From contig NZ_CATNVC010000001.1 of assembly GCF_951230135.1 (NCBI RefSeq), positions 76,746 to 140,745 of the forward strand: a stretch of DNA of 64,000 nt, written 5' to 3'. Under the pieces are notes generated by a model that made no database searches, was not told the origin of the DNA, and saw nothing but the letters and a program-made list of their open reading frames with translations. This document shows, in pieces, positions 11,092-53,096 of this stretch. Origin of the DNA: Butyricicoccus sp. Marseille-Q5471 (lineage in GTDB: Bacteria; Bacillota; Clostridia; Oscillospirales; Butyricicoccaceae). The translations under genes and the position numbers were made by a program. Every line of letters begins with the position of its first letter. Within the stretch, counting starts at the first letter, position 1.

Positions 11092-13011
11092 TCATTCCAA
11101 TTCGAATGCGCCGGTGTATAACTGATAATACTTTCCATGCTCTGCAATCAGCTGCTCGTGATTGCCCCGTTCAATGATGCGGCCAAGCTCAAGCACCATA
11201 ATCACATCTGCGTTCTGCACGGTTGACAGGCGGTGCGCAATGACGAATACCGTGCGCCCGCACATCAAGCCATCCATGCCGCGCTGCACGATGGCTTCGG
11301 TTCGCGTATCGATGCTGCTGGTCGCCTCATCGAGAATCATAACCGGCGGATCGGCTACCGCCGCACGCGCAATCGAAAGCAGCTGACGCTGTCCCTGCGA
11401 CAGGCTGCCGCCATCTCCGTCAATCTCGGTGTCATAGCCATCGGGCAGGCGCTCAATAAAGTCATCCGCACCCGCAAGCTGTGCCGCAGCCTTAATTTCC
11501 TCGTCGGTTGCATGCAGGCTGCCATACCGGATATTATCACGAATGGTGCCAGTGAACAGATTCGTATCCTGCAGTACAATACCGAGCGAGCGGCGCAAAT
11601 CAGACTTCTTAATCTTGTTGATGTTGATACCGTCATACCGAATCTTGCCGTCGGCCAAATCATAAAAACGGTTAATCAAGTTGGTGATGGTCGTCTTACC
11701 CGCGCCCGTCGCGCCGACGAAGGCCACCTTCTGCCCCGGCTCAGCGTAGAGTGTGACATTGTGCAGTACGATTTTCTCGGGCGTGTAGCCGAAATCGACA
11801 TCAAAGAAGCGAACGTCGCCGCGCACCTGCTCATAGGTCAGCGTGCCGTCCTCATGCGGATGCTTCCATGCCCAGATATTCGTCTTTTCTTCGGTTTCGA
11901 CCAGCTTGCCCTGCGCGTCATACTTGGCGTTTACCAGCGTGACATAGCCGTCGTCCACCTCGGACGGTTCATCCATCAGCTCAAAGATTCGCTCCGCGCC
12001 CGCGAGCGCCATGACGATGGAGTTGACCTGTTGGGAAATCTGGCTGACCGGCTGCGTGAAGGTCTTGGTCAGCTGCAGGAAGCTCGCAATCACGCCTAGC
12101 GTGATGCCGCCGCTGACGCCCGTCAGCGCAAGCGTACCGCCGACGACCGCAACCAGTACATACAGTAGGTTGCCGATGTTCATCATAATCGGCATCAGGA
12201 TATTCGCAAAGGTATTGGCGCGGGTCGCATTGATACGCAGCTCTTCGTTGAGCCCGTCAAACTGCTCCTTGCACTTATCCTCGCGGCAGAATACCTTGAC
12301 GACCTTCTGTCCGCCGATCATTTCCTCAATATAACCGTTGACCTTACCGATTGACTTCTGCTGCTCCAAAAAGTACTTTGCGGAGTTGCCGCCGATTTTC
12401 GCAGTCACGCGCAGCATGACAAACACGCCGAGCAGCACAAACAGCGTCAGCCACACGTTGGTGAACAGCATCGCCACCAGAACCGCAACAATTGTGATGG
12501 CCGAAGAGAACATCTGCGGCACCGACTGGCTGAGCATCTGCTGCAGGGTGTCGGTATCGTTGGTGTAATGGCTCATCACATCACCGTGGGTGTTGGTGTC
12601 GAAATAACGAATGGGCAATGACTGCATGTGCGAGAACATTTGATCGCGCACGGTTTTCAGCACGCCTTGCGAGATGGAAACCATCAAGCGGTTATAAAGG
12701 AAGGTAGAAATTACGCCAACCAGATAAACAAACCCCATCATCACCAGTGCGCGCAGCAGGCCGCTGAACACAGGCGAAGACTCTAAAAGCAGGGGCGAAA
12801 TGTAGTCGTCAATCAACACGCGCAGGAACATCGAACCGGCGACGCTTGCCAACGCGCCGAGCACGATGCACACCAGCACAACGAAGAATTTTCCGCTGTA
12901 ATCTCTCTTAATATAAGAAAGCAGGCGTCCCAGGGTCTTTTTCGGGTTCTTGCCGCGCTTTCCTCCTGCGGGACGGCCGTGGCGGCCGCCTCCCATCATC
13001 GGTCCGGGCAT
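11092..13011 (-). CDS. ABC transporter ATP-binding/permease protein (ABCB-type exporter, heterodimer subunit)
   Basis: 639 aa with a six-TM domain, Walker A GATGAGKTT and signature LSQGQRQLLSIARA. Confidence 0.85.
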   Translation of the reverse strand: MPGPMMGGGRHGRPAGGKRGKNPKKTLGRLLSYIKRDYSGKFFVVLVCIVLGALASVAGSMFLRVLIDDYISPLLLESSPVFSGLLRALVMMGFVYLVGVISTFLYNRLMVSISQGVLKTVRDQMFSHMQSLPIRYFDTNTHGDVMSHYTNDTDTLQQMLSQSVPQMFSSAITIVAVLVAMLFTNVWLTLFVLLGVFVMLRVTAKIGGNSAKYFLEQQKSIGKVNGYIEEMIGGQKVVKVFCREDKCKEQFDGLNEELRINATRANTFANILMPIMMNIGNLLYVLVAVVGGTLALTGVSGGITLGVIASFLQLTKTFTQPVSQISQQVNSIVMALAGAERIFELMDEPSEVDDGYVTLVNAKYDAQGKLVETEEKTNIWAWKHPHEDGTLTYEQVRGDVRFFDVDFGYTPEKIVLHNVTLYAEPGQKVAFVGATGAGKTTITNLINRFYDLADGKIRYDGININKIKKSDLRRSLGIVLQDTNLFTGTIRDNIRYGSLHATDEEIKAAAQLAGADDFIERLPDGYDTEIDGDGGSLSQGQRQLLSIARAAVADPPVMILDEATSSIDTRTEAIVQRGMDGLMCGRTVFVIAHRLSTVQNADVIMVLELGRIIERGNHEQLIAEHGKYYQLYTGAFELE

Positions 13012-14738
13012 TATTCCTCGCCTCCCTTCTGCTGTGAACGATAAACTTCCTGATAAATCTCATTGCTGCGCAGCAGCTCGTCATGCGTGCCGACCGCATT
13101 GATGCAGCCGTTGTCCATGACGATGATTTGATCGGCATCCTGTACCGAGGACACGCGCTGCGCGATAATGAGCTTGGTGGTTTCCGGGATTTCCTCGACA
13201 AACGCACGGCGGATGAGTGCATCCGTCTTGGTGTCAACCGCGCTGGTTGAATCATCCAGAATCAGAATTTTCGGTTTTTTCAGCAGCGCGCGTGCAATGC
13301 AAAGACGCTGTTTCTGGCCGCCCGATACATTGGTGCCACCCTGCTCGATGTGGGTATCATAGCCGTCCGGCATCTGCGAAATGAACTCATCCGCCTGCGC
13401 CAGTTTGCACACGCGTTTCAGTTCTTCGTCCGTTGCTTTTTCGTTGCCCCAACGCAGATTTTCCTTAATCGTGCCCGAAAACAGCACATTTTTCTGGAGC
13501 ACCATCGCAACTTCGTCACGCAGGGTTTCCAAATGATAGGCGCGCACATCCACGCCGCCGACCTTGACCGAGCCTTCGGTCACATCATACAGGCGCGGAA
13601 TGAGCTGCACCAGAGACGACTTTGCCGAACCCGTGCCGCCCAGAATACCGACAGTCTGCCCCGGCTTGATATCAAGATTGACCCCATGCAGGGCAAACTT
13701 ATGATGATCTCCCTTGTAGCTGAAGCTGACGTTTTCAAAGCGAATCGAGCCATCCTTGACCGCAGTGACCGGATTTTCCGGGTCGTGCAGATCAGCCTGC
13801 TCGGTCAGCAGCTCGCTGATGCGCTGCGCTGACGCGCGGGACATGGTAATCATCACGAACACCATTGCCACCATCATCAGGCTGATCAGAATCTGCATAA
13901 CGTAGGAGAACAGACTGGTCAGCTCGCCCGTTGTCATACTGCCGCCAACAATCAGCCGCGCACCGAACCACGAAATGAGCAGGATGCACGCATACATGCA
14001 AATCTGCATGAGCGGCATCGCGCAGGCCATAGTCTTCTGCGCCTTGGAAAACTCACGGTACAGCCGTCCGGACACGCTTTGGAACTTCTCAGTCTCATGT
14101 TCCTCGCGCACATAGGCTTTAACCACGCGGATGCCGCGCAGGTTTTCCTGTACGACCGTGTTCATGCGGTCATAGGTCTTGAACACGCGGGCAAATACCG
14201 GCGCAACAATCTTCATCAGTATACCCAGACCGATTCCCAGAATTGGCAGTACGCCGACAAATACCCACGCCACCTGATTGTTGATGCGGAACGCCATAAT
14301 CAGCGAGAAAATCAGCATCACCGGACATCTGACCGCGATGCGTGTGCACATCTGAAATGCGTTCTGCACATTGGTTACATCGGTCGTCAGTCGGGTGACG
14401 ATAGACGCGGTTGAGAATTTATCGATGTTTGAAAACGAAAAATCCTGCACAGCATAATACATATCGTGCCTGAGATTTCGCGCAAAGCCCGCCGAAGCGC
14501 GCGAAGCAAACGTGCCCGCCAATGCGCCGAACACCAGTGCAAGCATTGCGCAAACAATTAGAATCAGGCCGTACTTCCAAATTGCGCCCAGATTTCCCGC
14601 ATCAATGCCGCGGTCAATCAAAAGCGCCATGACGGTCGGTATCACGACCTCCATCACGACCTCCAAGACCACAAAAAACGGCGTGAGCAACGCATCCTTC
14701 TTGTACTCGCGTACACGCCCTACCAGTTGTTTGATCAT
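13011..14738 (-). CDS. ABC transporter ATP-binding/permease protein (ABCB-type exporter, heterodimer partner)
   Basis: 575 aa with a TMD plus Walker A GGTGSAKSS and signature VSGGQKQRLCIARA. ATGA overlap with the downstream partner. Confidence 0.85.
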   Translation of the reverse strand: MIKQLVGRVREYKKDALLTPFFVVLEVVMEVVIPTVMALLIDRGIDAGNLGAIWKYGLILIVCAMLALVFGALAGTFASRASAGFARNLRHDMYYAVQDFSFSNIDKFSTASIVTRLTTDVTNVQNAFQMCTRIAVRCPVMLIFSLIMAFRINNQVAWVFVGVLPILGIGLGILMKIVAPVFARVFKTYDRMNTVVQENLRGIRVVKAYVREEHETEKFQSVSGRLYREFSKAQKTMACAMPLMQICMYACILLISWFGARLIVGGSMTTGELTSLFSYVMQILISLMMVAMVFVMITMSRASAQRISELLTEQADLHDPENPVTAVKDGSIRFENVSFSYKGDHHKFALHGVNLDIKPGQTVGILGGTGSAKSSLVQLIPRLYDVTEGSVKVGGVDVRAYHLETLRDEVAMVLQKNVLFSGTIKENLRWGNEKATDEELKRVCKLAQADEFISQMPDGYDTHIEQGGTNVSGGQKQRLCIARALLKKPKILILDDSTSAVDTKTDALIRRAFVEEIPETTKLIIAQRVSSVQDADQIIVMDNGCINAVGTHDELLRSNEIYQEVYRSQQKGGEE

Positions 14739-15202
14739 AGTGTCACCTCCGAAGATTTGCTTTGGTACTCCTCCAAATTGGCACGAATCTGTTCACACAC
14801 CGCAAACCAGACCTGCAGCTGCTGCTCGTCAATGTTTTGGCGCATCAGCGATTCCATCTGTTCTAACTCCAAACAGATAACCGAGTGGAAGGCACGTGCC
14901 TTTTCTGTCAATTTAAGCCGTTTCAGCCGTGCATCATGTTCGACCGGCTCGCGCCGCACCAAGCCGTGGCGCTCCATCAACTGAAGGATGCCGGTCGCAG
15001 TCGAACGGCGAATGTGGAACTGGGTTTCGATATCCTTTTGGAACCGATCCCCCTGCGCCTCTTCATGAATCAGGTAATGAATAATCATGCCCTGCATGCC
15101 TGTGACGTTCTCCATTTCACTTCCCGATGCTCTGATTGCCATTTGCCGTTTGATCAGATTGTTGAGCATTCCCAGCTCCGCTCCGATCCGATCCTCAAGC
15201 AT
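14735..15202 (-). CDS. MarR family transcriptional regulator (first gene of MarR-ABC-ABC operon)
   Basis: 155 aa winged-helix MarR signature (RRSTATGILQLMERHGLVRREP). 4-nt overlap with the ABC gene. Confidence 0.8.
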   Translation of the reverse strand: MLEDRIGAELGMLNNLIKRQMAIRASGSEMENVTGMQGMIIHYLIHEEAQGDRFQKDIETQFHIRRSTATGILQLMERHGLVRREPVEHDARLKRLKLTEKARAFHSVICLELEQMESLMRQNIDEQQLQVWFAVCEQIRANLEEYQSKSSEVTL

Positions 15203-15898: not shown

Positions 15899-16441
15899 TC
15901 AACCAAGCCACCATGCTGCCAGCAGTACGCGCAGCAATGCGCTGAGCGCTGCAAGCACAATGCAGATTACATACGGAATCCGGCAGCTTTGCAGCAGGGT
16001 CTTGCCGCCGCTCGGGTCGGTCACACACCAAACCATTGTGCAGGCTGCAAGCAGTGCAGGCACCGCAAGCACCGCCGGCAGGCCGGTGGCCAAGACCGAC
16101 AACAGCAGGCTTTCCTTCTGTCCGATGCCGACCGCAACGGTCAGCGCCAGGACAAATCCGCGTGCGGCACACAGTCCGGCCAAGAACAGCGGAACCGGCC
16201 GCAGCAGTGCGCATAATACGGGCAACGCGATCCACAGCACCGCGCCCAGCACGCACCGTCCCGCCTGCTCAGGCAGGGCGGACAGCAGCGCGGCCAAGTG
16301 GATCGCATCGTCCCCCTCGCCGGCGATTAGGCCTGTCATGCCGCCCGCCAGCGCCCCGCACAGAAACATCGCGCACAAAAACACAAACGCAGGTGTGCGC
16401 AAAAGCTCGTCAAAAAAGCCGAGAACATGCTTTTTCCTCAT
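15899..16441 (-). CDS. Polytopic membrane protein, possibly SpoIIM-like
   Basis: 180 aa with about five TM helices. The N-terminal pattern MRKKHVLGFFDELLR...F..C is reminiscent of stage II sporulation protein M. Weak assignment. Confidence 0.4.
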   Translation of the reverse strand: MRKKHVLGFFDELLRTPAFVFLCAMFLCGALAGGMTGLIAGEGDDAIHLAALLSALPEQAGRCVLGAVLWIALPVLCALLRPVPLFLAGLCAARGFVLALTVAVGIGQKESLLLSVLATGLPAVLAVPALLAACTMVWCVTDPSGGKTLLQSCRIPYVICIVLAALSALLRVLLAAWWLG

Positions 16442-16503
16442 ACTTCTCCCCCTTACGGAAGGTTCTGATAAAGCATATTCCCGGCTTGTTCGTTTTAGAC
16501 CAG

Positions 16504-16980
16504 TCAGTCCTCACACATTGCGTTTACCAAATCGCGGCAGGGCTGATGCAGGAACAGGCGCACATTTTTTCCGATTTCATACGACGCACTCAGCTTGCCG
16601 TCCTCGTCCTTGTGCAGCGTCGCGGCAATCAGCTCGGTACCTGAAACAACGCGCTCGCCAACGAATTCAACATTTACGCGCGCATCATCGCACACGGTAA
16701 CCAGAATGCGCTTTTGGATGCACTGCGACAGCGGCGCAAGCTCGGTGGCCATCTCCCGGCGGGAGGCACACAGGAGCACGATTTCACTTTTGAGCACTGC
16801 GGCGAAGGTGTCCTCGCACACCACAGCACCGCTGCCCTCAGCGGCTGCTTTTGCAGCCTCGCTTTTGGAGGAAATAAACAGATTTCTGGCGGGAATGACG
16901 TTTTTATCAAGAATCGCACGAATCATCCGGGGCAAATATTCTCCCCCGCCGATGACGGCTACCAATACGTTTTGCGGCAT
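16504..16980 (-). CDS. NAD(P)-binding Rossmann-fold protein (short ProC-like)
   Basis: VAVIGGGEYLPRMIRAIL dinucleotide-binding motif. At 158 aa it is shorter than true ProC. RBS AAAGGAG. Confidence 0.4.
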   Translation of the reverse strand: MPQNVLVAVIGGGEYLPRMIRAILDKNVIPARNLFISSKSEAAKAAAEGSGAVVCEDTFAAVLKSEIVLLCASRREMATELAPLSQCIQKRILVTVCDDARVNVEFVGERVVSGTELIAATLHKDEDGKLSASYEIGKNVRLFLHQPCRDLVNAMCED

Positions 16981-17102
16981 GGAATCAACTCCTTTATGGA
17001 TTGCTAAAAATACTCATCAAGAGATACGATATTCATTATACGGCAGAAAAAGCCCTATTGGCAATCCATTTTACACGGTTTTTCGCCTTTTTGTCGTTCC
17101 TG

Positions 17103-18473
17103 CTAGTTTGCACAAAAATGCTCAACCGCTTTTAGATATATTGCACACTCCAGGCGTTTTCGTTCCATTTCACAGCCCAGATCATAGGAATCGTTCATAT
17201 CACCGTTCATATTATAGTTTGCCGCAGAACATCCACCTGAACAATAAAACTTTGCCCAACAGATTTGGCATTTAGGGCGGGAATAAATATTCATGCCGGC
17301 AAATTTCTGCGCAATATCCAAATCGAGCGTATTATCCAGCACGCTGCCCTGCTTAAACTCTTCCTTGCCCACAAACTGGTGGCAGGGATAGACATCGCCA
17401 TCCGGCGTGACGGCAACATACTCATAGCCCGCTCCACAGCCGCGCAGACGCTTGATAACGCAGGGACCCTGATTGAGATCAACCATGAAGTGGAAGAACG
17501 AGAAGCAGTTTCCTTCGCGCTTTTTCTCCTCCATAATGTCGGTCAGGCGGTCGTACTCGGCACAAATTTTGTCCAAATCGGCTTCGGTCAGGTCGTAGCC
17601 GGAGTCCGGGTCGGCCGTTACCGGCTCGACGGACAGACGGTCGAAGCCCGCCTCCGCAATGTGCAGCACATCGTTTGCAAAATCCAGATTATGCGAGGTA
17701 AACGTGCCGCGTGCATAGTAATCCTTGCCCTTATCGCGCGCGTCAACCAACGCCTTAAACTTGGGCACGATCACATCATAGCTGCCGCCGCCGTTTACGG
17801 TCTTGCGGAACTCGTCATTGACCGAGGGGCGGCCGTCAAGCGACAGCACAACGTTATCCATGTTTTCATTGATGTACTTCTGCTTGTCCGCATCAAGAAG
17901 CAGACCGTTGGTCGTAATCGTGAAACGGAACTTTTTGCCGTGCTCCGCCTCGATAGAACGCGCGTAATCGACCGTCTGCGTCACGGTGTCCCATGCCATC
18001 AGCGGCTCACCGCCGAAGAAATCCACTTCGATATTGCGGCGCGCGCCCGAACGGGCAATGACAAAGTCAATCGCCTTCTTCGCAATTTCAGGTGGCATGA
18101 TTTTACGGCCCTGCCCAAAGTCGCCGGTCGATGCGAAGCAGTATTTGCATCTGAGATTGCAGTCGTGCGCCACGTGCAGGCAAAGTGCCTTGACCGGTGC
18201 GCCGACCGGCACGTACTTGGATACGTCGATGTAATCATCCTTGGCGAAGAGCTGTCCGTTTTCCTTCAAATCGTATAGCTCGGCATACGCCTCACGCACC
18301 GCCTGCGGATCGGTGTCCGGCAGCGCGTCAATCACGCTCTGCGGGCACTCGGCCGGCATGGCTTCATCAACCAGGCCCGATACCGCATAGCTCGTGTCAT
18401 CCAGTACATGAACCGCGCCCGAATTGACATCGAGCACGAAGTTTACGCCTTTTTTGGTAAAGCGATGGATCAT
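17103..18473 (-). CDS. SCIFF radical SAM maturase (rSAM with C-terminal SPASM domain)
   Basis: CX3CX2C (CNLRCKYC) and a C-terminal SPASM Cys cluster (CQICWAKFYCSGGCSAANY). ATG at 18473 has RBS GGAGG. It lies directly downstream of the SCIFF precursor. The ORF-track start at 18581 overlaps the precursor gene and is rejected. Confidence 0.85.
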   Translation of the reverse strand: MIHRFTKKGVNFVLDVNSGAVHVLDDTSYAVSGLVDEAMPAECPQSVIDALPDTDPQAVREAYAELYDLKENGQLFAKDDYIDVSKYVPVGAPVKALCLHVAHDCNLRCKYCFASTGDFGQGRKIMPPEIAKKAIDFVIARSGARRNIEVDFFGGEPLMAWDTVTQTVDYARSIEAEHGKKFRFTITTNGLLLDADKQKYINENMDNVVLSLDGRPSVNDEFRKTVNGGGSYDVIVPKFKALVDARDKGKDYYARGTFTSHNLDFANDVLHIAEAGFDRLSVEPVTADPDSGYDLTEADLDKICAEYDRLTDIMEEKKREGNCFSFFHFMVDLNQGPCVIKRLRGCGAGYEYVAVTPDGDVYPCHQFVGKEEFKQGSVLDNTLDLDIAQKFAGMNIYSRPKCQICWAKFYCSGGCSAANYNMNGDMNDSYDLGCEMERKRLECAIYLKAVEHFCAN

Positions 18474-18496
18474 TTTATTTATTCCTCCAACTGAAT

Positions 18497-18529
18497 AAGA
18501 AACAAGGCGCGCCAATCCGGCACGCCTTG
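18497..18529 (-). terminator. Intra-operon hairpin plus U-tract between SCIFF precursor and maturase (putative partial terminator)
   Basis: Minus-strand RNA forms CAAGGCG-ugccggauugg-CGCCUUG followed by UUUCUU, located between the precursor stop and the maturase RBS. Confidence 0.5.
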
Positions 18530-18549
18530 CAGTTTGACTTCTGTTAGCC

Positions 18550-18693
18550 TTACTTGGCCTGCTCGCAGGTCTGGTTCGCAACCGTGCAAGAGGTCTTGCA
18601 GGCGGACTGGCAGGAAGTCTGGCACTCGCCGCAGCCGCCCTTGGCAGCAGACTGCTTCAGCGTCGCCGAGGTCAACGTGGTAATATGCTTCAT
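18550..18693 (-). CDS. SCIFF (six cysteines in forty-five residues) ranthipeptide precursor peptide, 47 aa
   Basis: Not in the ORF track because it is under 60 aa. Translation is MKHITTLTSATLKQSAAKGGCGECQTSCQSACKTSCTVANQTCEQAK, showing the hallmark GGCGECQTSCQSACKTSCT core of SCIFF. RBS GGGAGGAA precedes the ATG. Confidence 0.85.
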   Translation of the reverse strand: MKHITTLTSATLKQSAAKGGCGECQTSCQSACKTSCTVANQTCEQAK

Positions 18694-18719
18694 GATAGGT
18701 TCCTCCCTTTCACAACGTC

Positions 18720-19133
18720 TTACTTTTTGATATGCTTATAGCGCTTTTTCTTGCGCATACCCGCACCGGCAAAACCGCCGAGCGCCGAGCCGACGAGCAT
18801 GCAAATCACACTCACCAGTACGCGCAGGATATGAACGGGCTGTCCCAGAGCGATTGCCCCGCCGACAAGCATCACCAGAAAAACCAGCGCCCCTGCGCCG
18901 ACCGCCCAGAGGAACTTGCCGCCGGGTGCGCGCTTGGCCGAAATCATCGCCGCCACGGCACAGCCAAACGCCAGAAAGACCAGCGCACAGGGTGTTACCG
19001 CGCCTTCCCCGAGTGTGCCGCGCTGCACAAGCAGAGCGCCCACAAACATCAGGAGCAGGGTCAGGATTAATCCGGTACCCGCCGCCGGCAGCAGAATGCT
19101 GACCGGTGACGTACCGCTATCGGTTTTTCTCAT
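18720..19133 (-). CDS. Small integral membrane protein (conserved SCIFF/yajC neighbourhood)
   Basis: 137 aa with three to four TM helices and a basic C-terminal tail (RKKKRYKHIKK). Its stop lies 27 nt from the SCIFF start. Confidence 0.5.
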   Translation of the reverse strand: MRKTDSGTSPVSILLPAAGTGLILTLLLMFVGALLVQRGTLGEGAVTPCALVFLAFGCAVAAMISAKRAPGGKFLWAVGAGALVFLVMLVGGAIALGQPVHILRVLVSVICMLVGSALGGFAGAGMRKKKRYKHIKK

Positions 19134-19191
19134 ATCACGCTACCTCCCGCCGAAACTGTTTGTACATGGTATTCGGCAAAGAGTTGGGTTA

Positions 19192-19521
19192 TTACTTCTT
19201 TTCGTTTGCTTCCTTGGGCGCTTCAACACCCTCGGTCGCCGGAGCTTCCTTACCGCGGATCGCCCAACGGTAAATGCGCAGCTTGGTGCGATCGGAAGAG
19301 GTTTCGATGGTCAGTACATCGTCCTTAATGTTGACGACCTTGCCGATGAAACCACCGATGGTCGAGACTTCGTCACCAATCGAAATCGAGCTTCTCATGT
19401 CACGCTCAGCCTTGTCGCGCTTACGCTGCGGACGAATGAGCATAAAGTAGAACACAACGACGAGCAATACGATCGGCGCGAACTGAACGATATAGTACAG
19501 GTAATCCTGTCCACTTGGCAT
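19192..19521 (-). CDS. yajC: Preprotein translocase subunit YajC
   Basis: Starts MPSGQDYLYYIVQFAPIVLLVVVFYFMLIRPQRKR. ATG at 19521 has RBS AAGGAGG. The ORF-track extension is rejected. Confidence 0.85.
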   Translation of the reverse strand: MPSGQDYLYYIVQFAPIVLLVVVFYFMLIRPQRKRDKAERDMRSSISIGDEVSTIGGFIGKVVNIKDDVLTIETSSDRTKLRIYRWAIRGKEAPATEGVEAPKEANEKK

Positions 19522-19668
19522 ATTTAACACCTCCTTGTGCTTTTTGCCGTTAATAAATTTATTATACTGGAAGGTTATCCAAATTACAAGCCTTTCTTTT
19601 GATTTCGCATAGGACAATCCGCCGCCAACATAAATTAAAACCACTATCTGGAAACGAGGTGCTAAGCT

Positions 19669-20367
19669 ATGCTGTTATCCGCCCTGCTGGCGCTGGGAGG
19701 CGCGTTTTTCTTTCTGGTGCTGCGAGTTCAAGGCAGCGGCGGTTCGTTCCCCAAGCCGCTGTCCCCCGAAGAGGAGCACGAGCTGCTTTGTAAAATGCAG
19801 GAGGGGGACGAGGCCGCGCGCGCCAAACTGATTGAACATAATCTGAGACTGGTTGCGCACATCGTCAAAAAATATTATGCAGACCGTGCCGAACAGGATG
19901 ATCTCATTTCAATCGGCACCATCGGACTAATCAAGGCGGTCAGCACGTTTAACGCGGATAAGAACATTAAACTTGCGACCTATGCCTCCAAATGCATTCA
20001 GAACGAACTGCTTATGCACTTCCGTCAAAAACGCAAATCAGCCGGGGAGCTGTCGCTCTCGGATTCGCTCGACACCGATGCGGACGGCAATGCGCTGAAT
20101 CTGATGGACGTCATCTGCTGCGAGGATCTAAATCTTCAGGCAGTAGAAGAGCACGACCGATACGACGCGATGCATCAGGCGCTCGCAGCCTGTCTGACCC
20201 CACGCGAACGTGAGATTATCCGCCTGCGCTACGGACTCGGCACACCTGCCCCACTCACCCAGCGCGAGGTCGCCCGACATCTCGACATTTCTCGTTCCTA
20301 CGTTTCACGCATTGAAAAGAAAGCGCTCGAAAAGCTGCGCGAATCATTGGAACACCAGAATGATTAA
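19669..20367 (+). CDS. sigK: Sporulation sigma factor of the SigE/SigK family with N-terminal pro-sequence (most likely pro-sigma-K)
   Basis: Has a hydrophobic 24-aa pro-peptide before SFPKPLS, then LIEHNLRLVAHIVKKYY, GTIGLIKAV and ISRSYVSRIEKKAL. No adjacent spoIIGA, which favours sigK over sigE. Classification between E and K is uncertain. Confidence 0.7.
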   Translation: MLLSALLALGGAFFFLVLRVQGSGGSFPKPLSPEEEHELLCKMQEGDEAARAKLIEHNLRLVAHIVKKYYADRAEQDDLISIGTIGLIKAVSTFNADKNIKLATYASKCIQNELLMHFRQKRKSAGELSLSDSLDTDADGNALNLMDVICCEDLNLQAVEEHDRYDAMHQALAACLTPREREIIRLRYGLGTPAPLTQREVARHLDISRSYVSRIEKKALEKLRESLEHQND

Positions 20368-20417
20368 AGCTGCTCCAGCGCTGCGGCACAACTGTGCCCG
20401 GCGCCTGCTCCACGAGA

Positions 20418-20450
20418 AAGGAGTCCTTATATAAGGGCTCCTTTTTCCCA
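20418..20450 (+). terminator. Intrinsic terminator after the sigma factor gene
   Basis: AGGAGTCCTTAT/ATAAGGGCTCCT hairpin followed by TTTTTCCC. A second weaker hairpin GAGCTGAGC/GCTCAGC follows. Confidence 0.6.
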
Positions 20451-20490
20451 TGCTTATATAAAGAGCTGAGCATGCTCAGCCGTTTTGGCT

Positions 20491-21381
20491 TCATCCAATG
20501 ACATTTGTCAGTATGCCGATGCCGTCAATCTCGCACTCGACCACATCGCCATTTTTCAAAAAGCACGGCGGCTGCATGCCCATGCCCACCCCCGCGGGCG
20601 TTCCGGTTGCGATGATTGTGCCCGCCTTTAGCGTCATACCCTGTGTCAGCTCGGCAATGATTTCCGCGATGCCTGTCATCAAATATTCGGTGTTGCTGTC
20701 CTGCCGCGTTTCGCCGTTGACCCGGCAGCGGATACCGAGCGCAGGCGGCGAGGCGACCTCATCCGCCGTCAGGATGCACGGCCCCATCGGCGTGTGTCCA
20801 TCCAGACTTTTGCCGAAATACCACTGTTTATGGCCGGTCTGCAAATTGCGCGCGGATACATCATTGAGAATGGTATAGCCAAATACATAATCAAAGGCAT
20901 CCTCTGCCCTGACCTGCCACGCGTCCCGACCGATGACCACGCCAAGCTCACATTCATAATCCAGACTGTCAACCAGGGTTTCATAGGCCGGAATCACGCC
21001 GCCGTTCCAATTGGCTTCGCTCACCCGCTTGGAAAAGTAAATTGTGCGCGGGCGGTCGCCAAACGCCGCTCGGTCAAAGCGCCCGGCCTCCGTCAGGTGA
21101 TCATAGTAATTGATGCCGAGGCACAGCACATCCTGCAGCGGGAACGGAATGGGCGCACGCGGCACAAGCGCATCAAGGCGCAGGGGCTCTTTCCCTTCCG
21201 GCGGCACGCGCAGCGCGGCAAGCTGCTCTGGTGACGCACTTCGAATCAGTGCGTTCATATCGGCAAACGCCATCCCCCAGCACGAAAGCGGCCAAATTTT
21301 GCCCGGCTGCTCCGTGTAGCCTACACCGATTTCATCCGGTGACTGCGCCGATGTTTGATATGTATATAGCTTCATATTCAT
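20491..21381 (-). CDS. Fumarylacetoacetate hydrolase (FAH) family protein
   Basis: 296 aa with FAH-fold motifs (VNGETRQDSNT...IATGTPAGVG). Confidence 0.8.
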   Translation of the reverse strand: MNMKLYTYQTSAQSPDEIGVGYTEQPGKIWPLSCWGMAFADMNALIRSASPEQLAALRVPPEGKEPLRLDALVPRAPIPFPLQDVLCLGINYYDHLTEAGRFDRAAFGDRPRTIYFSKRVSEANWNGGVIPAYETLVDSLDYECELGVVIGRDAWQVRAEDAFDYVFGYTILNDVSARNLQTGHKQWYFGKSLDGHTPMGPCILTADEVASPPALGIRCRVNGETRQDSNTEYLMTGIAEIIAELTQGMTLKAGTIIATGTPAGVGMGMQPPCFLKNGDVVECEIDGIGILTNVIG

Positions 21382-21557
21382 CCTCCCGAAATTCCCGGAT
21401 TTTCCGCTCTCATTTTATCATTTCATGCCATGTTTATCAATCTCATTTGATTGCAACGACCTGTTTTTGGGACATCTTTTCCTATTTGACCATTTTCCCG
21501 ACGCGCAAAATACCGTATGATAAAAGCATACAAGGCTATTCAGGGGAGGCTGTCCAT

Positions 21558-22589
21558 TTGAAACGTGAAATTTTGACCCGCATGATGGCGCAATCCGTCA
21601 TAGAGCAGGGACTGCGCGGCCTGCAAGACGATCCGCACCGCAGCCTGCGCCGACTGGTCGATTTCGGCAGTGAACTGGCCAACGGGCCGTACCAGAAGAA
21701 TTTCATCAACCTGTTTCGCAGGCTACTGAAACGGGAAGATTGCCCCTATTACAATTTGGCACAGAACGCCGTACGCGATGTCTCACACAGCCGGCTCAAA
21801 ACCTGCGCGCTCGGTCTCGGGTGGAACAGCCTGACTGTCGGCGCTGCCCGCATTCGCACACTGGAAGCGGAAAAGGGGCACAATATTCCGTGGTCGCTCA
21901 CACTGCACTTAGACGGCAGTGCGTGCGCCATGAACAGTGAACAGTACGAAGCCCTTGTGCATCAGGCGGTCGATCTGGGCATTTACTCCTATTTTCTCGT
22001 GCCGGATGAAAGCGCTGCCGCGCTGAGCATCGCGCTGGAACTTGTCAACCGCGCGCCCGACTGCGTCTTTTTCCTGCTGCTGCCGGAGCAGCGCGGCGAA
22101 ATGGAGCAGCTACCCGCGTCTTCCGTCCCCGACAACCTTATTCTCGGACTCTCGACCGACCGCACGCACTGGAGAAGCGACGCACAGTGCTTGCGAAACG
22201 CAGGCTGTCTTTATGCGCTTTATCGTGCCTATTCCACTCCGGAGGAGGTGCGCGAAATCACCTCTGGCAGCTGGGCCGCTGAAATCGCGCCTGATATGGG
22301 AATGGCAACGGTCTGTGTGGCGCGGCACGACTGCCCCCCCAACCTCGCCGAGCAGGTCTGCGGCTACACACTCCGCTCCCGCTTGTCACCGCAGTACCCT
22401 ACTTTTTTTGTTGATTTTTATACCGACAACCACTATGCCGATCGCTGTATTTCAGGAGACGCCTGCTTTATGGGTGTGCTGCCGGACGGCACAGTCACCG
22501 AATACTGCGACGGGCACGAAACTGCTGCCGCCTACTCGGTTTTCGATGCGCCGCTGTCCGAACTGCTCGCCCGCTATTTTCAAAAATAA
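21558..22589 (+). CDS. Hypothetical protein with Cys-rich C-terminal region
   Basis: Proposed TTG start at 21558 is preceded by GGGGAGG (the ORF-track start at 21231 has no RBS). 344 aa with no recognisable family. The last 90 aa hold six Cys (VCVARHDC...VCGY...RCISGDAC...EYCDGHE). Confidence 0.45.
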   Translation: MKREILTRMMAQSVIEQGLRGLQDDPHRSLRRLVDFGSELANGPYQKNFINLFRRLLKREDCPYYNLAQNAVRDVSHSRLKTCALGLGWNSLTVGAARIRTLEAEKGHNIPWSLTLHLDGSACAMNSEQYEALVHQAVDLGIYSYFLVPDESAAALSIALELVNRAPDCVFFLLLPEQRGEMEQLPASSVPDNLILGLSTDRTHWRSDAQCLRNAGCLYALYRAYSTPEEVREITSGSWAAEIAPDMGMATVCVARHDCPPNLAEQVCGYTLRSRLSPQYPTFFVDFYTDNHYADRCISGDACFMGVLPDGTVTEYCDGHETAAAYSVFDAPLSELLARYFQK

Positions 22590-27810: not shown

Positions 27811-27884
27811 TGGCAGCCGAAGAAGGATTCGAACCCTCACAAACAGAGTCAGAGTCTGTCGTGCTACCTTTACACAATTCGGCT
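27811..27884 (-). tRNA. tRNA-Gln (anticodon CUG)
   Basis: 74-nt cloverleaf read on the minus strand: acceptor AGCCGAA/TTCGGCT, D-stem GTGT/GCAC, anticodon stem ACAGA/TCTGT with loop CTCTGAC (anticodon CTG), T-arm GAGGG-TTCGAAT-CCTTC, discriminator G and encoded CCA. Confidence 0.8.
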
Positions 27885-47824: not shown

Positions 47825-48733
47825 TTAAGCGTGCTTCTTGCGAAACACCTTGCGGAAGAAGTTCCACAGCGATGCCGACAGGAAGATAGACGAGTATGCG
47901 CCTGCCAGAATGCCGATAATCAGCGGCAGCGTGAACTCCTTGAGCGAGCTGACACCCAGAATGAAAATCATGCCGATGGTGAACAGCGTGGTCAGCGTGG
48001 TATTGATGGTACGACCCATGGTCTGCCAAACGCTGCGCTCTGCGATTTCTTCAAACGGTTCCTTGCGCGCAGCACGCAGGTTTTCACGAATGCGGTCGAA
48101 TACGATAATCGACGCATTGATGGAATAACCAAGAATGGTCAGCGCTGCGGCAATAAAGTTTGTGTTGAGCGGAAGCTGGAAAATGATATAGCACGACAGC
48201 ATAATCAGCAAATCGTGTACCAGGCAGCAGACTGCCGCCATGCCCGAGGTCAGCTCAAAGCGGAACGTGATATAAATCATCATCAGGATGATTGCAACAA
48301 TCGCGCAAATAAAGGCTGCTGCCTTCAGGTCGTTGCCGACAGATGCGGACACGTCCTCGTTGGCGTAAAGATCATCGTCAGTCAAGCTGTACTTGCTCTT
48401 CATCGCCTCAATGACCTTGGAACGGGTTTCGGAATCAATTGACTTGGAGCGAATCAGAACCTGCTGATTATTATCGCCCGCAGAGGTAACCGACGAAGCC
48501 GACTGGCCCGTCGTTTCTGCAAACAGTGCGCCGACTTCATTCTGAATGTCCTGCGTCACGGTCTGCTTCATGTTGAACTCCATCTCGGTGCCGCCTGCGA
48601 AATCGATGTCCAGATTGAACAGATTCACACCAAACGGCAGTGCCAGCAGGCCAACCAGGCCAACCGCACACAGCAGGACGGAGATAATGCCGAAAATTTT
48701 AAAATTCTTTAATACAGGAAACTTGGGATTCAT
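47825..48733 (-). CDS. secF: Protein-export membrane protein SecF
   Basis: 302 aa with the SecF topology and motifs. Confidence 0.9.
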   Translation of the reverse strand: MNPKFPVLKNFKIFGIISVLLCAVGLVGLLALPFGVNLFNLDIDFAGGTEMEFNMKQTVTQDIQNEVGALFAETTGQSASSVTSAGDNNQQVLIRSKSIDSETRSKVIEAMKSKYSLTDDDLYANEDVSASVGNDLKAAAFICAIVAIILMMIYITFRFELTSGMAAVCCLVHDLLIMLSCYIIFQLPLNTNFIAAALTILGYSINASIIVFDRIRENLRAARKEPFEEIAERSVWQTMGRTINTTLTTLFTIGMIFILGVSSLKEFTLPLIIGILAGAYSSIFLSASLWNFFRKVFRKKHA

Positions 48734-48751
48734 AATTTATCTCCTCCTTTC

Positions 48752-50077
48752 TTATGCGCCGTAAGCCTTGGGGTTGCGGATGTGGAAATCAACCATACGA
48801 TTGAGCAGGAAGTGCGTAATCGTCAGCGCGGTGAACATCGACACCAGAACGCCGATGCCGAGCGTGGTCGCAAAGCCGACAATCGTGCCGGTGCCCTTCC
48901 AGAGCAGCACAGCGGCAGCAATCAGCGTGGTCACGTTGGAGTCCAGAATTGCGGAGAACGCACGCTTGAAGCCGGAATCGATGGCGCTCTTAACCGTCTT
49001 GCCCGCGCGCAGCTCTTCCTTGATGCGCTCGAAGATGACGACGTTGGCGTCAACCGCCATACCGATTGACAATATGATGCCGGCGATGCCGGGCAGCGAC
49101 AGGTTGACGCGAACCCAGCTGAAAATGATGCATTCAATCACAATGTAGAAGCCGAGCGCCATGCAGGCAACCAGACCGGGAATGCGGTAAACGATCAGCA
49201 TGAACAGGCAGACCAGCATAATACCAATCAGGCCTGCAATCAGGCTGGTGCGCATTGCGTTTGCGCCCAGCTGCGGGCCGACCGAACGCAGCTCCGCCTG
49301 CTTGAGGTCGAACGGCATCTGACCGACATTAATCAGGTCTGCCAGTTCGTTGGCACTTTCATTGGTGAAGTTGCCGCCCTCAATGACACAGGTCTTTTCA
49401 TTGAGCTGGCTCGAAACCGTCGGCATCGAAATGACAGAGTTGTCCATGATGATGCCGAGAACATTCGTGCCGTCGGTACGTGCTGCGATAGAAGCCGTTG
49501 CCTCGGAGAATTTCTTGACGCCCTCGTCGGTGAACTCAATCTGTACATAGTACGAGCTGCCCAGCGAGGAGTTGGTCTTGCCATACATCGCGGTTGCGCG
49601 CTCGATGTCCTTGCCGGTCAGCCATTCCTTGCCGTCCGCGTCGACAAATGTCAGCTGAGCGGTCGTGCCGAGCGTCTGCACGGCTTCTTCGGGGTTCGTA
49701 ATTTCGGGGATTTCAACCGTGATGCGGTTTTCATCGCGCAGTGCGACGGTCGCTTCGGTAAAGCCCTTGTTGGTCAGTCGCTGACGAATCATCGACTGGG
49801 CGATCTTCATGTCGTCCGCAAGGTTGGCGTGGTCGTAGCCCTCAGGCAGTACGGCCTCATACGTGATAGACGAGCCGCCGACCAAATCAAGGCCAAGGCG
49901 GATACCGTTTTCCGAGTCGGTTACGGCCGGAATGAGTGCGCGCACCTGCGTGGTGTCGTCCTCAGCCAGCTCCGGCTTGCTAAAGCCCCCCGGAATATAC
50001 AGTCCCGTTATCGCTGTCACGCCCAGAAAGACGATCACGAGCATGACCGCGATAAAGGAAATCACACTCTTCTTCAA
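48752..50077 (-). CDS. secD: Protein-export membrane protein SecD
   Basis: SecD periplasmic domain plus a six-TM C-terminus. Proposed TTG start at 50077 is preceded by AAAGGAGG; the ORF-track start at 50146 has no RBS. Confidence 0.88.
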   Translation of the reverse strand: MKKSVISFIAVMLVIVFLGVTAITGLYIPGGFSKPELAEDDTTQVRALIPAVTDSENGIRLGLDLVGGSSITYEAVLPEGYDHANLADDMKIAQSMIRQRLTNKGFTEATVALRDENRITVEIPEITNPEEAVQTLGTTAQLTFVDADGKEWLTGKDIERATAMYGKTNSSLGSSYYVQIEFTDEGVKKFSEATASIAARTDGTNVLGIIMDNSVISMPTVSSQLNEKTCVIEGGNFTNESANELADLINVGQMPFDLKQAELRSVGPQLGANAMRTSLIAGLIGIMLVCLFMLIVYRIPGLVACMALGFYIVIECIIFSWVRVNLSLPGIAGIILSIGMAVDANVVIFERIKEELRAGKTVKSAIDSGFKRAFSAILDSNVTTLIAAAVLLWKGTGTIVGFATTLGIGVLVSMFTALTITHFLLNRMVDFHIRNPKAYGA

Positions 50078-50212
50078 TGTTTTACAGCCTCCTTTTTTTC
50101 TTACACAACTGCTAGTTAGTATAGTCTTTTCAAGTGACAAAGTCAATGCTAAAGCTCCTTAAAACAGACACACTTCGCCCCTTGCAGGAATGGAGTTCTC
50201 CTTCAAAGCACC

Positions 50213-51717: not shown

Positions 51718-51771
51718 AGTTTATCACTTTACGCTGTTTTTTTCAAGAAAATCCGGCGCATGAGGTCGTTT

Positions 51772-52971
51772 TTACGCGTTTTTTATGAACTGCTCCAAAC
51801 GGTCGAGTCCTTTGTCAATCTCCTGAAGCGAAGTTGCATAACTCCAACGCAGGAAACCCGGAGCAGCAAAGGCCGTGCAGGGCACGGTCGCAACCAAGCC
51901 CTTTTCGAGAAACAGCTGCGCAAACTCCTCAGCCGACTGAATCATCCGGCCGTACATGCTTTTTCCAATGAAGTTCTGCATATTCATCATGACATAGAAC
52001 GCACCCTGCGGCTTGATGCAGGAAACGCCGTCAATATGGTTCATTCGCTCTACCAAATGATCGCGTCGAGCCTCAAACGCGCGGCACATCTCATGAATAT
52101 CCTCCTGCGGGCCGACCAATGCGGTAATAGCCGCCTGCTGCGAAATGGTAGACGGCGCCGAGGTCGAGTGGCTCAAGTAGTTGGACATGACCTTGGCAAG
52201 CTCGCGGTTGGAGGCGGTGTAGCCAATGCGCCAACCGGTCATGGCATAGGACTTGGACACGCCGTTGACGACAATCGTGCGCTCCTTAATATCCGCACCG
52301 AGCGACGCGAAGGAGACGAATTCCAGATTGTCATACACCAGATTGCAGTAAATTTCGTCCGCAATTACGTAAACATTGCGGCGGCAGCAAACCTCTGCAA
52401 TGGACTCCAGCTCTGCACGGGTATAGACCATGCCGGTCGGGTTCGAGGGCGAGTTGAGCATGAACACCTTTGTGTTATCCGTAATCGCAGCATCCAGCTG
52501 TTCGGCGGTGATTTTAAAATCCTGCGCCTCGGTGGCCGAAACAATCACCGGAATCGCGCCCGCCTGCTTAACCATCTCGCTGTACGACACCCAATAGGGC
52601 GCGGCAATGACAACCTCGTCCCCCGGGTTGCACAGCGTCATCAGCGCAATATAAACAGAGTGCTTTGCGCCGGAAGCCACAACAATCTCCTCCGGCTCGT
52701 AATCCAAACCGCAGTCCGCTTTCAGACGGTAGCACGCGGCGCGGCGCAGCTCCATCAATCCGGCTGCCGGGGTGTAGCGGGTCAGGTTATTGTCAATCGC
52801 GTCAATACCCGCCTGCTTGATGTGCATCGGCGTGGGAAAATCAGGCTCGCCCGCGCCAAAGCCGACAACATCCAGTCCATCCGCCTTCATTTGCTTGAAC
52901 ATGGAATCAATTACGAGCGTGGTCGATGCCTGTACGCCCGCGGCAATCTTAGAAATCGGTTTCAGTGCCAC
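51772..52971 (-). CDS. Aspartate aminotransferase (class I PLP-dependent)
   Basis: 399 aa with PLP-lysine region SKSYAMTGWRIGY. GTG start with RBS AAGGAG. Confidence 0.85.
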   Translation of the reverse strand: MALKPISKIAAGVQASTTLVIDSMFKQMKADGLDVVGFGAGEPDFPTPMHIKQAGIDAIDNNLTRYTPAAGLMELRRAACYRLKADCGLDYEPEEIVVASGAKHSVYIALMTLCNPGDEVVIAAPYWVSYSEMVKQAGAIPVIVSATEAQDFKITAEQLDAAITDNTKVFMLNSPSNPTGMVYTRAELESIAEVCCRRNVYVIADEIYCNLVYDNLEFVSFASLGADIKERTIVVNGVSKSYAMTGWRIGYTASNRELAKVMSNYLSHSTSAPSTISQQAAITALVGPQEDIHEMCRAFEARRDHLVERMNHIDGVSCIKPQGAFYVMMNMQNFIGKSMYGRMIQSAEEFAQLFLEKGLVATVPCTAFAAPGFLRWSYATSLQEIDKGLDRLEQFIKNA

Positions 52972-53069
52972 CGGTTTTCACTCCTTACATCTCTCTTGCT
53001 ACCTTATTATATGCTCCCTTTGCCGACTTTGCAAGTCCGAGGTAGGAAAATTGCAAAATTCACAAGGTA

Positions 53070-53096
53070 GAAAAAAGCCGCCCCTCAGGGCGGCTC
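53070..53096 (-). terminator. Intrinsic terminator after thiN
   Basis: GCCGCCCCT-c-AGGGCGGC with an A-tract on the plus strand (a U-tract on the minus RNA). Confidence 0.7.

What the first reader, a model, noticed from the sequence alone, without database searches (positions are those of the whole stretch)
17103..19133. Unannotated SCIFF ranthipeptide precursor with its rSAM/SPASM maturase, embedded in the yajC neighbourhood
A 47-aa ORF at 18550..18693 (minus) was missed by the ≥60-aa ORF track. It encodes MKHITTLTSATLKQSAAKGGCGECQTSCQSACKTSCTVANQTCEQAK, the signature of the SCIFF family (six Cys in about 45 residues, core GGCGECQTSCQSACKTSCT). A radical SAM enzyme with a C-terminal SPASM domain (the SCIFF maturase) follows immediately. 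A small membrane protein and yajC sit upstream, and secDF is 30 kb away, matching the conserved clostridial context. This is a RiPP (ranthipeptide, Cys-S to carbon thioether crosslinks) locus whose physiological role is unknown. The corrected maturase start (18473) removes the ORF-track overlap with the precursor.
Basis: partly seen in the sequence, partly recalled or inferred. Interest (0 to 1): 0.85.

Follow-up and report, generated by a model that had tools for sequence, protein, structure and literature searches.

The report
Ordinary SCIFF peptide and its maturase
This is a textbook copy of the SCIFF cysteine-rich peptide gene and its radical-SAM cross-linking enzyme, found in nearly all Clostridia and already named as such in RefSeq for this very sequence, so it is real but ordinary.

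Summary
A 47-aa ORF at 18550..18693 (-) encodes a SCIFF precursor: TIGR03973 79.5 bits (cut-off 50), PF13165 81.5 bits (cut-off 27). The gene 76 nt downstream (17103..18473, -) is the SCIFF maturase ScfB: TIGR03974 664 bits (cut-off 425). It is 53.5% identical end to end to crystallised CteB, with all Fe-S cysteines conserved. A TIGR04086 membrane protein and YajC lie upstream. The small ORF is present and in frame in all 15 related loci fetched. Its 18-residue core shows 115 synonymous and 0 non-synonymous codon differences. The corrected maturase start (18473) is supported.

Nothing here is new. The identical peptide, enzyme and membrane protein are RefSeq entries from Butyricicoccus sp. Marseille-Q5471, with exactly these names. 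secDF lies about 29 kb away, which departs from the canonical scfB-secD-secF adjacency rather than matching it. The one added detail is a strong hairpin with a T-tract between scfA and scfB. It is conserved in position but not in sequence across relatives, and is probably a leaky terminator or transcript stabiliser. Verdict: already known, low interest.

The parts
19561..19589 (-). Candidate sigma-70-type promoter (TTGTAA-17-TATAAT) upstream of yajC. It may drive a yajC-TIGR04086-scfA-scfB transcript.
   Evidence: Consensus scan only, 10/12 match. This is an inference, not shown to be functional.
19192..19524 (-). yajC (110 aa from ATG 19524), preprotein translocase accessory subunit
   Evidence: TIGR00739 80.8 bits (cut-off 44.2) and PF02699 94.4 bits. 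Conserved upstream of the locus in L002-L005.
18720..19133 (-). TIGR04086/DUF3792 small membrane protein (137 aa), the conserved upstream neighbour of SCIFF
   Evidence: TIGR04086 41.5 bits (cut-off 30) and PF12670 48.7 bits. The same family sits directly upstream of scfA in L005, L008, L009, L012, L014 and L015 and in L001-L004 by tblastn. Identical to RefSeq WP_283672923.1.
18701..18707 (-). Shine-Dalgarno GGGAGGA of scfA, 8 nt before the ATG
   Evidence: Read directly from the sequence.
18550..18693 (-). scfA: 47-aa SCIFF precursor. Leader is about residues 1-20 and the Cys-rich core about 21-47, with Cys at 21, 24, 28, 32, 36 and 43.
   Evidence: TIGR03973 79.5 bits and PF13165 81.5 bits. 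Identical to WP_283672922.1. Residues 1-21 align without gaps to CteA 1-21 of PDB 5WGG. 115 synonymous and 0 non-synonymous codon differences in the core.
18492..18530 (-). Intergenic hairpin (12-13 bp, G+C-rich, 18530..18502) followed by a T-rich tail (TTCTTATT). Probably a leaky intrinsic terminator or 3' stabiliser of the scfA transcript.
   Evidence: Terminator-like call with 13 pairs. Hairpin dG -22.6 kcal/mol, matched by 0 of 30 shuffles. A hairpin at the same place but with unrelated stem sequence occurs in all related loci. 60/60 cells paired in five close relatives. The function is inferred.
18484..18488 (-). Shine-Dalgarno GGAGG of scfB, 10 nt before ATG 18473
   Evidence: Read directly from the sequence.
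17103..18473 (-). scfB: 456-aa radical SAM/SPASM SCIFF maturase. It has an N-terminal leader-binding domain, CX3CX2C at C105/C109/C112, and SPASM cysteines at 338, 346, 364, 402, 405, 411, 415, 434 and 443.
   Evidence: TIGR03974 664.3 bits (cut-off 425). The NF040492 'not_ScfB' exception model scores 564.8, below its cut-off of 855. PF04055 and PF13186 hit. 53.5% identity over 447 aligned positions to CteB (PDB 5WGG/5WHY), E=1e-168, with all cluster Cys conserved. Identical to WP_283672921.1.

Best explanation
This is the canonical SCIFF ranthipeptide locus of a Butyricicoccus genome. scfA is translated into a 47-residue precursor. By homology with CteB, the N-terminal domain of ScfB binds the conserved leader (MKHIxTLxxxTLK). 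The radical SAM [4Fe-4S] cluster (C105/C109/C112) cleaves S-adenosylmethionine to a 5'-deoxyadenosyl radical. That radical abstracts a hydrogen from a Thr side chain of the core. A core cysteine, held at the open site of a SPASM auxiliary cluster, then forms a Cys-S to Thr-Cγ thioether. By analogy with CteA and Tte1186a the bond is Cys32 to Thr34 or Thr37, and both residues are conserved here at the same numbering. The hairpin and T-tract between scfA and scfB most likely end or stabilise most transcripts after scfA, so the precursor is made in excess over the enzyme. The product's role is most likely cell-physiology signalling (quorum-sensing or sporulation-linked) rather than antibiosis. Shown here: gene identities, conservation, purifying selection, conserved cluster ligands, conserved hairpin. 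Inferred: the cross-link chemistry and position, the role of the hairpin, and the physiological role.
For: Equivalog-level HMM hits sit above curated cut-offs for the peptide, enzyme, membrane protein and YajC. The exact sequences are named in RefSeq. ScfB aligns end to end with crystallised CteB and keeps every Fe-S cysteine. The leader aligns with CteA 1-21. All 15 related loci have scfA directly upstream of scfB, with 0 non-synonymous and 115 synonymous differences in the core. TIGR04086 is the conserved upstream neighbour. The hairpin is conserved in position with different stems, and none of 30 shuffles matched it in 13 of 14 loci. The chemistry and knock-out phenotypes come from reviews PMC8326336, PMC8172795 and PMC8102284. 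The ubiquity of one SCIFF ranthipeptide cluster per clostridial species is reported in bioRxiv 10.1101/2025.02.12.637840.
Against: No product has been observed for this organism. The literature disagrees on the acceptor residue (Thr37 in vitro, Thr34 in E. coli co-expression) and on whether the other five cysteines are modified. The window holds no leader peptidase or dedicated exporter next to the locus. The nearest ABC transporters (11092..14738) are generic MsbA-like proteins scoring below every peptide-export cut-off, so export of the peptide is not shown. Covariation support for the hairpin within close relatives is statistically weak. The promoter assignment is a consensus match only.
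Confidence: 0.92

Rival explanations
1. The locus makes a sactipeptide-type (Cys-S to Cα) antimicrobial bacteriocin, as SCIFFs were first classified.
For: ScfB shares the rSAM/SPASM architecture with sactisynthases and gives weak hits to sactipeptide maturase models, e.g. RumMC 108.8 bits. Early papers assigned Cα links.
Against: Isotope-labelling work reported in the reviews shows a Cγ link in CteA. The core is invariant across relatives whose enzymes are only 53% identical and occurs once per species across Clostridia, which is unlike a bacteriocin. No immunity, protease or dedicated export gene is adjacent. The RumMC score is far below its cut-off of 720.
Confidence: 0.03
2. The enzyme is a ScfB-related 'orphan' maturase that acts on another substrate, and the small ORF is incidental.
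For: NCBIfam has an exception model for such orphans (NF040492), and the enzyme scores 564.8 bits on it.
Against: That score is well below the model's cut-off of 855, while the true ScfB model is passed (664 against 425). A bona fide SCIFF gene is 76 nt upstream here and in all 15 relatives.
Confidence: 0.01
3. SCIFF is not a secreted signal. It is an intracellular or membrane-associated housekeeping peptide, for example a metal- or cluster-binding or translocon-associated factor, working with the TIGR04086 membrane protein and the YajC/SecDF neighbourhood.
For: The core is extremely invariant. There is no peptidase or exporter. TIGR04086 is persistently adjacent, as are yajC or secDF in different lineages. 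The locus is ubiquitous in Clostridia.
Against: There is no direct evidence. The only genetics point to quorum-sensing-type transcriptome effects. The Sec-gene linkage is broken in this window (secDF 29 kb away) and absent in L006-L009, so it is not obligatory.
Confidence: 0.04

Closest known systems
CteA/CteB (thermocellin) of Clostridium thermocellum, PDB 5WGG/5WHY
   Same: ScfB is 53.5% identical over 447 aligned positions, end to end, with the CX3CX2C motif and all SPASM cysteines conserved. The leader residues 1-21 align without gaps. Cys21/24/28/32/36 and Thr34/Thr37 fall at the same numbering.
   Different: The leader differs at 8 of 21 positions, and the C-terminal tail after Cys43 differs. 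There are no biochemical data for this orthologue.
Tte1186a/Tte1186 of Caldanaerobacter subterraneus, the first SCIFF characterised in vitro
   Same: It belongs to the same equivalog families (TIGR03973/TIGR03974). The Cys32 and Thr37 reported as cross-linked are present here.
[quoted passage not shown] 2020)
   Same: The same precursor-plus-maturase pair. These are the only ones with knock-out phenotypes, affecting quorum-sensing and sporulation gene expression.
   Different: Different order of Clostridia. Whether the phenotype carries over to Butyricicoccus is unknown.
PapA/PapB (freyrasin) and QhpD
   Same: Related rSAM/SPASM thioether-forming enzymes. They give partial hits: PapB 265.5 bits and QhpD 230.5 bits.
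   Different: Both scores are below the curated cut-offs (340 and 453). Those enzymes make Cys-Asp Cβ links or act on a protein substrate, and the CX3D repeats are absent from this peptide.

Membership tests
SCIFF precursor (TIGR03973 / PF13165) | Whole-peptide HMM score above the curated cut-off | tested here: met
   TIGR03973 79.5 bits against 50. PF13165 81.5 bits against 27.
SCIFF precursor (TIGR03973 / PF13165) | Six Cys within about 45 residues, with the core GGCGECQTSCQSACKTSCT | tested here: met
   Read directly from the sequence: Cys21, 24, 28, 32, 36, 43 in 47 aa.
SCIFF precursor (TIGR03973 / PF13165) | Encoded immediately upstream of a ScfB-type maturase, on the same strand | tested here: met
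   76-nt gap in the window, and the same arrangement in all 15 related loci.
SCIFF precursor (TIGR03973 / PF13165) | Really translated and under selection | tested here: met
   115 synonymous and 0 non-synonymous codon differences in the 18-aa core over 14 loci, plus a strong Shine-Dalgarno. Translation itself cannot be tested here.
Ranthipeptide (radical non-alpha thioether peptide) | Cys-S to Cβ/Cγ thioether present in the mature product | not testable with these tools
   This needs MS/MS or NMR of the modified peptide. It is inferred from CteA and Tte1186a.
ScfB SCIFF maturase (TIGR03974) | Equivalog HMM above its cut-off, and not captured by the 'not_ScfB' orphan exception model | tested here: met
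   TIGR03974 664.3 bits against 425. NF040492 564.8 bits, below 855.
ScfB SCIFF maturase (TIGR03974) | Radical SAM CX3CX2C motif | tested here: met
   C105-x3-C109-x2-C112 aligns to CteB C107/C111/C114. PF04055 58.3 bits.
ScfB SCIFF maturase (TIGR03974) | C-terminal SPASM domain with the cysteines for two auxiliary [4Fe-4S] clusters | tested here: met
   TIGR04085 67.2 bits and PF13186 27.2 bits. Cys338, 346, 364, 402, 405, 411, 415, 434 and 443 are all conserved with CteB.
ScfB SCIFF maturase (TIGR03974) | N-terminal leader-recognition (RRE-like) domain | tested here: met
   Residues 1-100 align contiguously with the N-terminal domain of CteB, whose crystal structure shows an RRE. No RRE-specific HMM was run.
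ScfB SCIFF maturase (TIGR03974) | Catalyses thioether formation on ScfA | not testable with these tools
   Requires anaerobic reconstitution or co-expression.
Canonical clostridial SCIFF neighbourhood | TIGR04086 membrane protein directly upstream of scfA | tested here: met
   Window 18720..19133, 41.5 bits against 30. Also present in related loci.
Canonical clostridial SCIFF neighbourhood | yajC upstream | tested here: met
   TIGR00739 80.8 bits. Conserved in L002-L005.
Canonical clostridial SCIFF neighbourhood | secD-secF immediately downstream of scfB | tested here: not met
   secD/secF are at 47825..50146, about 29 kb away and on the upstream side. They are adjacent in L012, L014 and L015 but not in the Butyricicoccaceae loci L001-L004, where two other small genes follow scfB. 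This feature is contextual and does not define the peptide or enzyme family.

The most novel reading that the evidence does not exclude
The evidence does not exclude that SCIFF is a housekeeping, cell-associated peptide rather than a secreted signal. In that reading it is functionally coupled to the TIGR04086 membrane protein and the Sec accessory genes. The conserved scfA-scfB hairpin would then be a regulated attenuator that tunes the precursor-to-enzyme ratio. This would bear on the long-open question of why nearly every Clostridium keeps one invariant SCIFF. It would be a statement about the whole family, not something special to this window.
Probability: 0.07. Interest if true: 0.55.

Novelty: already known. 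Interest (0 to 1): 0.1.

Why it matters
For this window it matters only as a correct annotation. The locus is a standard SCIFF ranthipeptide cluster that NCBI's pipeline already names, and one such cluster is present in most clostridial genomes. The general open question, what SCIFF peptides do, is real, but this copy offers no special handle on it. The only small additions are the structurally conserved hairpin between precursor and maturase, and the lineage-specific loss of secDF adjacency in Butyricicoccaceae.

Tried and rejected
(1) I looked for a known RNA family over 16000..21000. Rfam gave only a chance-level hit (E=0.81, 17 bits against a gathering score of 74), so the hairpin is not a catalogued element.

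(2) I tested hairpin covariation in five close relatives. All cells paired, with one A-U to G-C double change, but the shuffle controls were not significant (124/500 and 154/500). The case for the hairpin therefore rests on its positional conservation with unrelated stems, not on covariation.

(3) I looked for a dedicated exporter, peptidase or regulator. The ABC transporters at 11092..14738 and the MarR at 14735..15202 hit only generic models, far below the RiPP-specific cut-offs, so I rejected them as part of the cluster.

(4) I looked for further Cys-rich precursors in the window. There are 19 small Cys-rich ORFs, and only the SCIFF ORF is credible. The others look like Arg/Cys-rich off-frame artefacts of 55.6% G+C DNA; this is my judgement from their sequences and was not tested.

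(5) I tried to read Haft & Basu 2011, Grove et al. 2017 and Hudson et al. 2019 directly. None is held, so their content is cited through reviews.

(6) The two conserved genes downstream of scfB gave no confident family. PF03807 scored 21.0 bits, below its gathering score of 21.6, and the membrane protein hit nothing.

(7) I deliberately did not spend the large protein-database searches or structure prediction, because the curated HMMs, the exact RefSeq matches and the CteB alignment already settle identity.
Full report
**Observation**

The minus strand of the window carries a 47-codon ORF at 18550..18693.
- A GGGAGGA ribosome-binding site lies 8 nt before its ATG.
- A long ORF starts 76 nt downstream. 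Its mechanical start (TTG 18581) overlaps the small ORF, but an ATG at 18473 has GGAGG 10 nt upstream.
- Upstream are a 137-aa ORF (18720..19133) and an ORF whose 110-aa version starts at ATG 19524.

**Identity of the four genes**

- **Peptide:** 79.5 bits on NCBIfam TIGR03973, "six-cysteine ranthipeptide SCIFF" (cut-off 50), and 81.5 bits on Pfam PF13165 (gathering score 27).
- **Enzyme (456 aa):** 664.3 bits on TIGR03974, "thioether cross-link-forming SCIFF peptide maturase" (cut-off 425). It stays below the cut-off of NF040492, the exception model for ScfB-like orphans (564.8 against 855). It also carries Radical_SAM and SPASM domains.
- **Upstream genes:** a TIGR04086/DUF3792 membrane protein and YajC, both above their cut-offs.
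- **Maturase start:** the TIGR03974 alignment begins at residue 2 = profile position 1, and the alignment to the crystallised SCIFF maturase CteB begins at residue 1. Both support the corrected start at 18473.

**Comparison with the solved reference**

ScfB aligns end to end with CteB of Clostridium thermocellum (PDB 5WGG/5WHY), at E=1e-168 and 53.5% identity over 447 aligned positions.
- The CX3CX2C triad (C105/C109/C112) is conserved.
- Every cysteine of the SPASM region is conserved (338, 346, 364, 402, 405, 411, 415, 434, 443).
- The first 21 residues of the peptide align without gaps to the CteA 1-21 fragment of entry 5WGG.
- The numbering is therefore shared. Cys32, Thr34 and Thr37, the residues reported as cross-linked in CteA and Tte1186a, are all present here.

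**Is the small ORF real and conserved?**

A scan of one genome per species with the maturase returned 15 loci, 84% down to 53% identical.
- In every one, an in-frame SCIFF ORF lies directly upstream of the maturase.
- Against 14 of them, the 18-residue core CGECQTSCQSACKTSCTV shows 115 synonymous codon differences and no amino-acid change. That is decisive evidence for translation under strong purifying selection.
- Only this one credible Cys-rich small ORF exists in the window.

**Already annotated**

The exact peptide, enzyme and membrane protein are in RefSeq, all from Butyricicoccus sp. Marseille-Q5471:
- WP_283672922.1, "six-cysteine ranthipeptide SCIFF"
- WP_283672921.1, "thioether cross-link-forming SCIFF peptide maturase"
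- WP_283672923.1, "TIGR04086 family membrane protein"

The window therefore comes from that organism or a near-identical one.

**Context**

- In the Butyricicoccaceae-like relatives (L001-L005) the order is the same as in the window. sigK sits on the opposite strand, followed by yajC, TIGR04086, scfA, scfB, a 158-aa Rossmann-like protein and a 180-aa membrane protein.
- In more distant Clostridia, TIGR04086 is still directly upstream of scfA (L008, L009, L012, L014, L015).
- In L012, L014 and L015, secD-secF follow scfB immediately.
- In the window, SecD (48752..50146) and SecF (47825..48733) lie about 29 kb away, on the upstream side of the operon.
- The conserved core is therefore TIGR04086-scfA-scfB. 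It is a lineage-specific break of that context.
- I found no leader peptidase, dedicated exporter or cluster-specific regulator. The nearby ABC transporters and MarR score far below all peptide-system cut-offs.

**One added detail: the intergenic hairpin**

The 76-nt spacer between scfA and scfB contains a G+C-rich 12-13-bp hairpin (18530..18502) followed by TTCTTATT.
- It was the top terminator-like call in the region.
- It folds at -22.6 kcal/mol, and none of 30 shuffles matched that.
- Every related locus has a strong hairpin at the same place, 21-54 nt before the scfB start. The stems are unrelated in sequence between lineages. In 13 of 14 loci tested, no shuffle folded as well, and most are followed by a T-rich tail.
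- Within the five close relatives all 60 pair cells are paired, with one A-U to G-C double change. With so few sequences the shuffle control is not significant.
- Rfam has no family for it.

I infer a leaky intrinsic terminator or 3' stabiliser that keeps the precursor transcript in excess over the enzyme transcript. This arrangement is familiar from other RiPP operons (my own knowledge, not tested here). The function is not shown.

**Mechanism**

Steps shown here are the gene identities, conserved ligands, conserved leader and core, and the conserved hairpin.

Steps inferred from the CteB, Tte1186 and CteA literature are:
1. The N-terminal RRE-like domain of ScfB binds the leader.
2. Reductive cleavage of SAM at the C105/C109/C112 cluster gives a 5'-deoxyadenosyl radical.
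3. The radical abstracts a hydrogen from a Thr side chain.
4. A core Cys, ligated to the open site of an auxiliary SPASM cluster, forms a Cys-S to Thr-Cγ thioether (Cys32 to Thr34 or Thr37).

Whether the other five cysteines are modified, whether the leader is removed and whether the peptide leaves the cell are unresolved for the whole family. The only genetics comes from knock-outs in C. beijerinckii and C. ljungdahlii. These point to quorum-sensing-type regulation and, in C. beijerinckii, down-regulation of sporulation genes. A recent pangenome survey finds these ranthipeptide clusters conserved across clostridial orders, at most one per species.

**Rivals**

- **Sactipeptide bacteriocin:** contradicted by the Cγ chemistry reported for CteA, the invariance of the core and the lack of immunity or export genes.
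- **Orphan ScfB-like enzyme:** excluded by the model scores and the adjacent precursor.
- **Non-secreted housekeeping role tied to TIGR04086 and the Sec neighbourhood:** cannot be excluded but has no direct support. The Sec linkage is not obligatory.

**Verdict**

However, the locus is a standard, already-annotated member of a family described in 2011 and characterised structurally and biochemically since then. Novelty is "already known" and interest is low (0.1). The small residual value lies in the conserved scfA-scfB hairpin and in the Butyricicoccaceae-specific rearrangement of the neighbourhood.

Noticed in passing
window 18492..18530 (-); also the scfA-scfB spacers of L001-L015: A strong hairpin plus T-rich tail lies between the SCIFF stop and the maturase start. 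It is conserved in position in all relatives, with unrelated stem sequences. It is probably a leaky terminator or transcript stabiliser, and Rfam has no family for it.
   Followed up: yes
window 15899..16980 (-); L001 1970..3056, L002 7484..8543, L003 3177..3871, L004 7484..8516: In Butyricicoccaceae-like genomes scfB is followed by a conserved pair instead of secDF. One is a 158-aa Rossmann-like protein (PF03807, 21.0 bits, just below its gathering score). The other is a 180-aa membrane protein with no family hit. A promoter-like site (11/12 match) at 17064..17035 suggests separate transcription.
   Followed up: partly
window 19669..20367 (+): An intact sporulation sigma factor SigK gene (NF004471, 275.7 bits) is divergently oriented next to yajC. 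This adjacency is conserved in L002-L005. It is mildly suggestive, because SCIFF knock-outs lower sporulation gene expression in C. beijerinckii.
   Followed up: partly
window 47825..50146 (-): secD and secF are separate genes about 29 kb from the SCIFF locus. In L012, L014 and L015 they directly follow scfB, so this lineage has undergone a rearrangement.
   Followed up: yes
window 21231..22589 (+) and 51760..53070 (+): Two long ORFs (452 aa and 436 aa) have no Pfam hit at E≤0.01. The second also has no NCBIfam hit at E≤1e-5. The first contains several Cys-x-x-Cys-like stretches. Whether they are real genes was not examined.
   Followed up: no
window 11092..15202 (-): A MarR-family regulator is followed by two MsbA-like ABC half-transporters (575 and 639 aa) without a peptidase domain. 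They are generic efflux-type genes, about 2 kb beyond the downstream neighbours of scfB, and were judged not to be part of the SCIFF cluster.
   Followed up: partly
window 27811..27884 (-): A single tRNA-Gln (CTG) gene, the only tRNA in the window.
   Followed up: no
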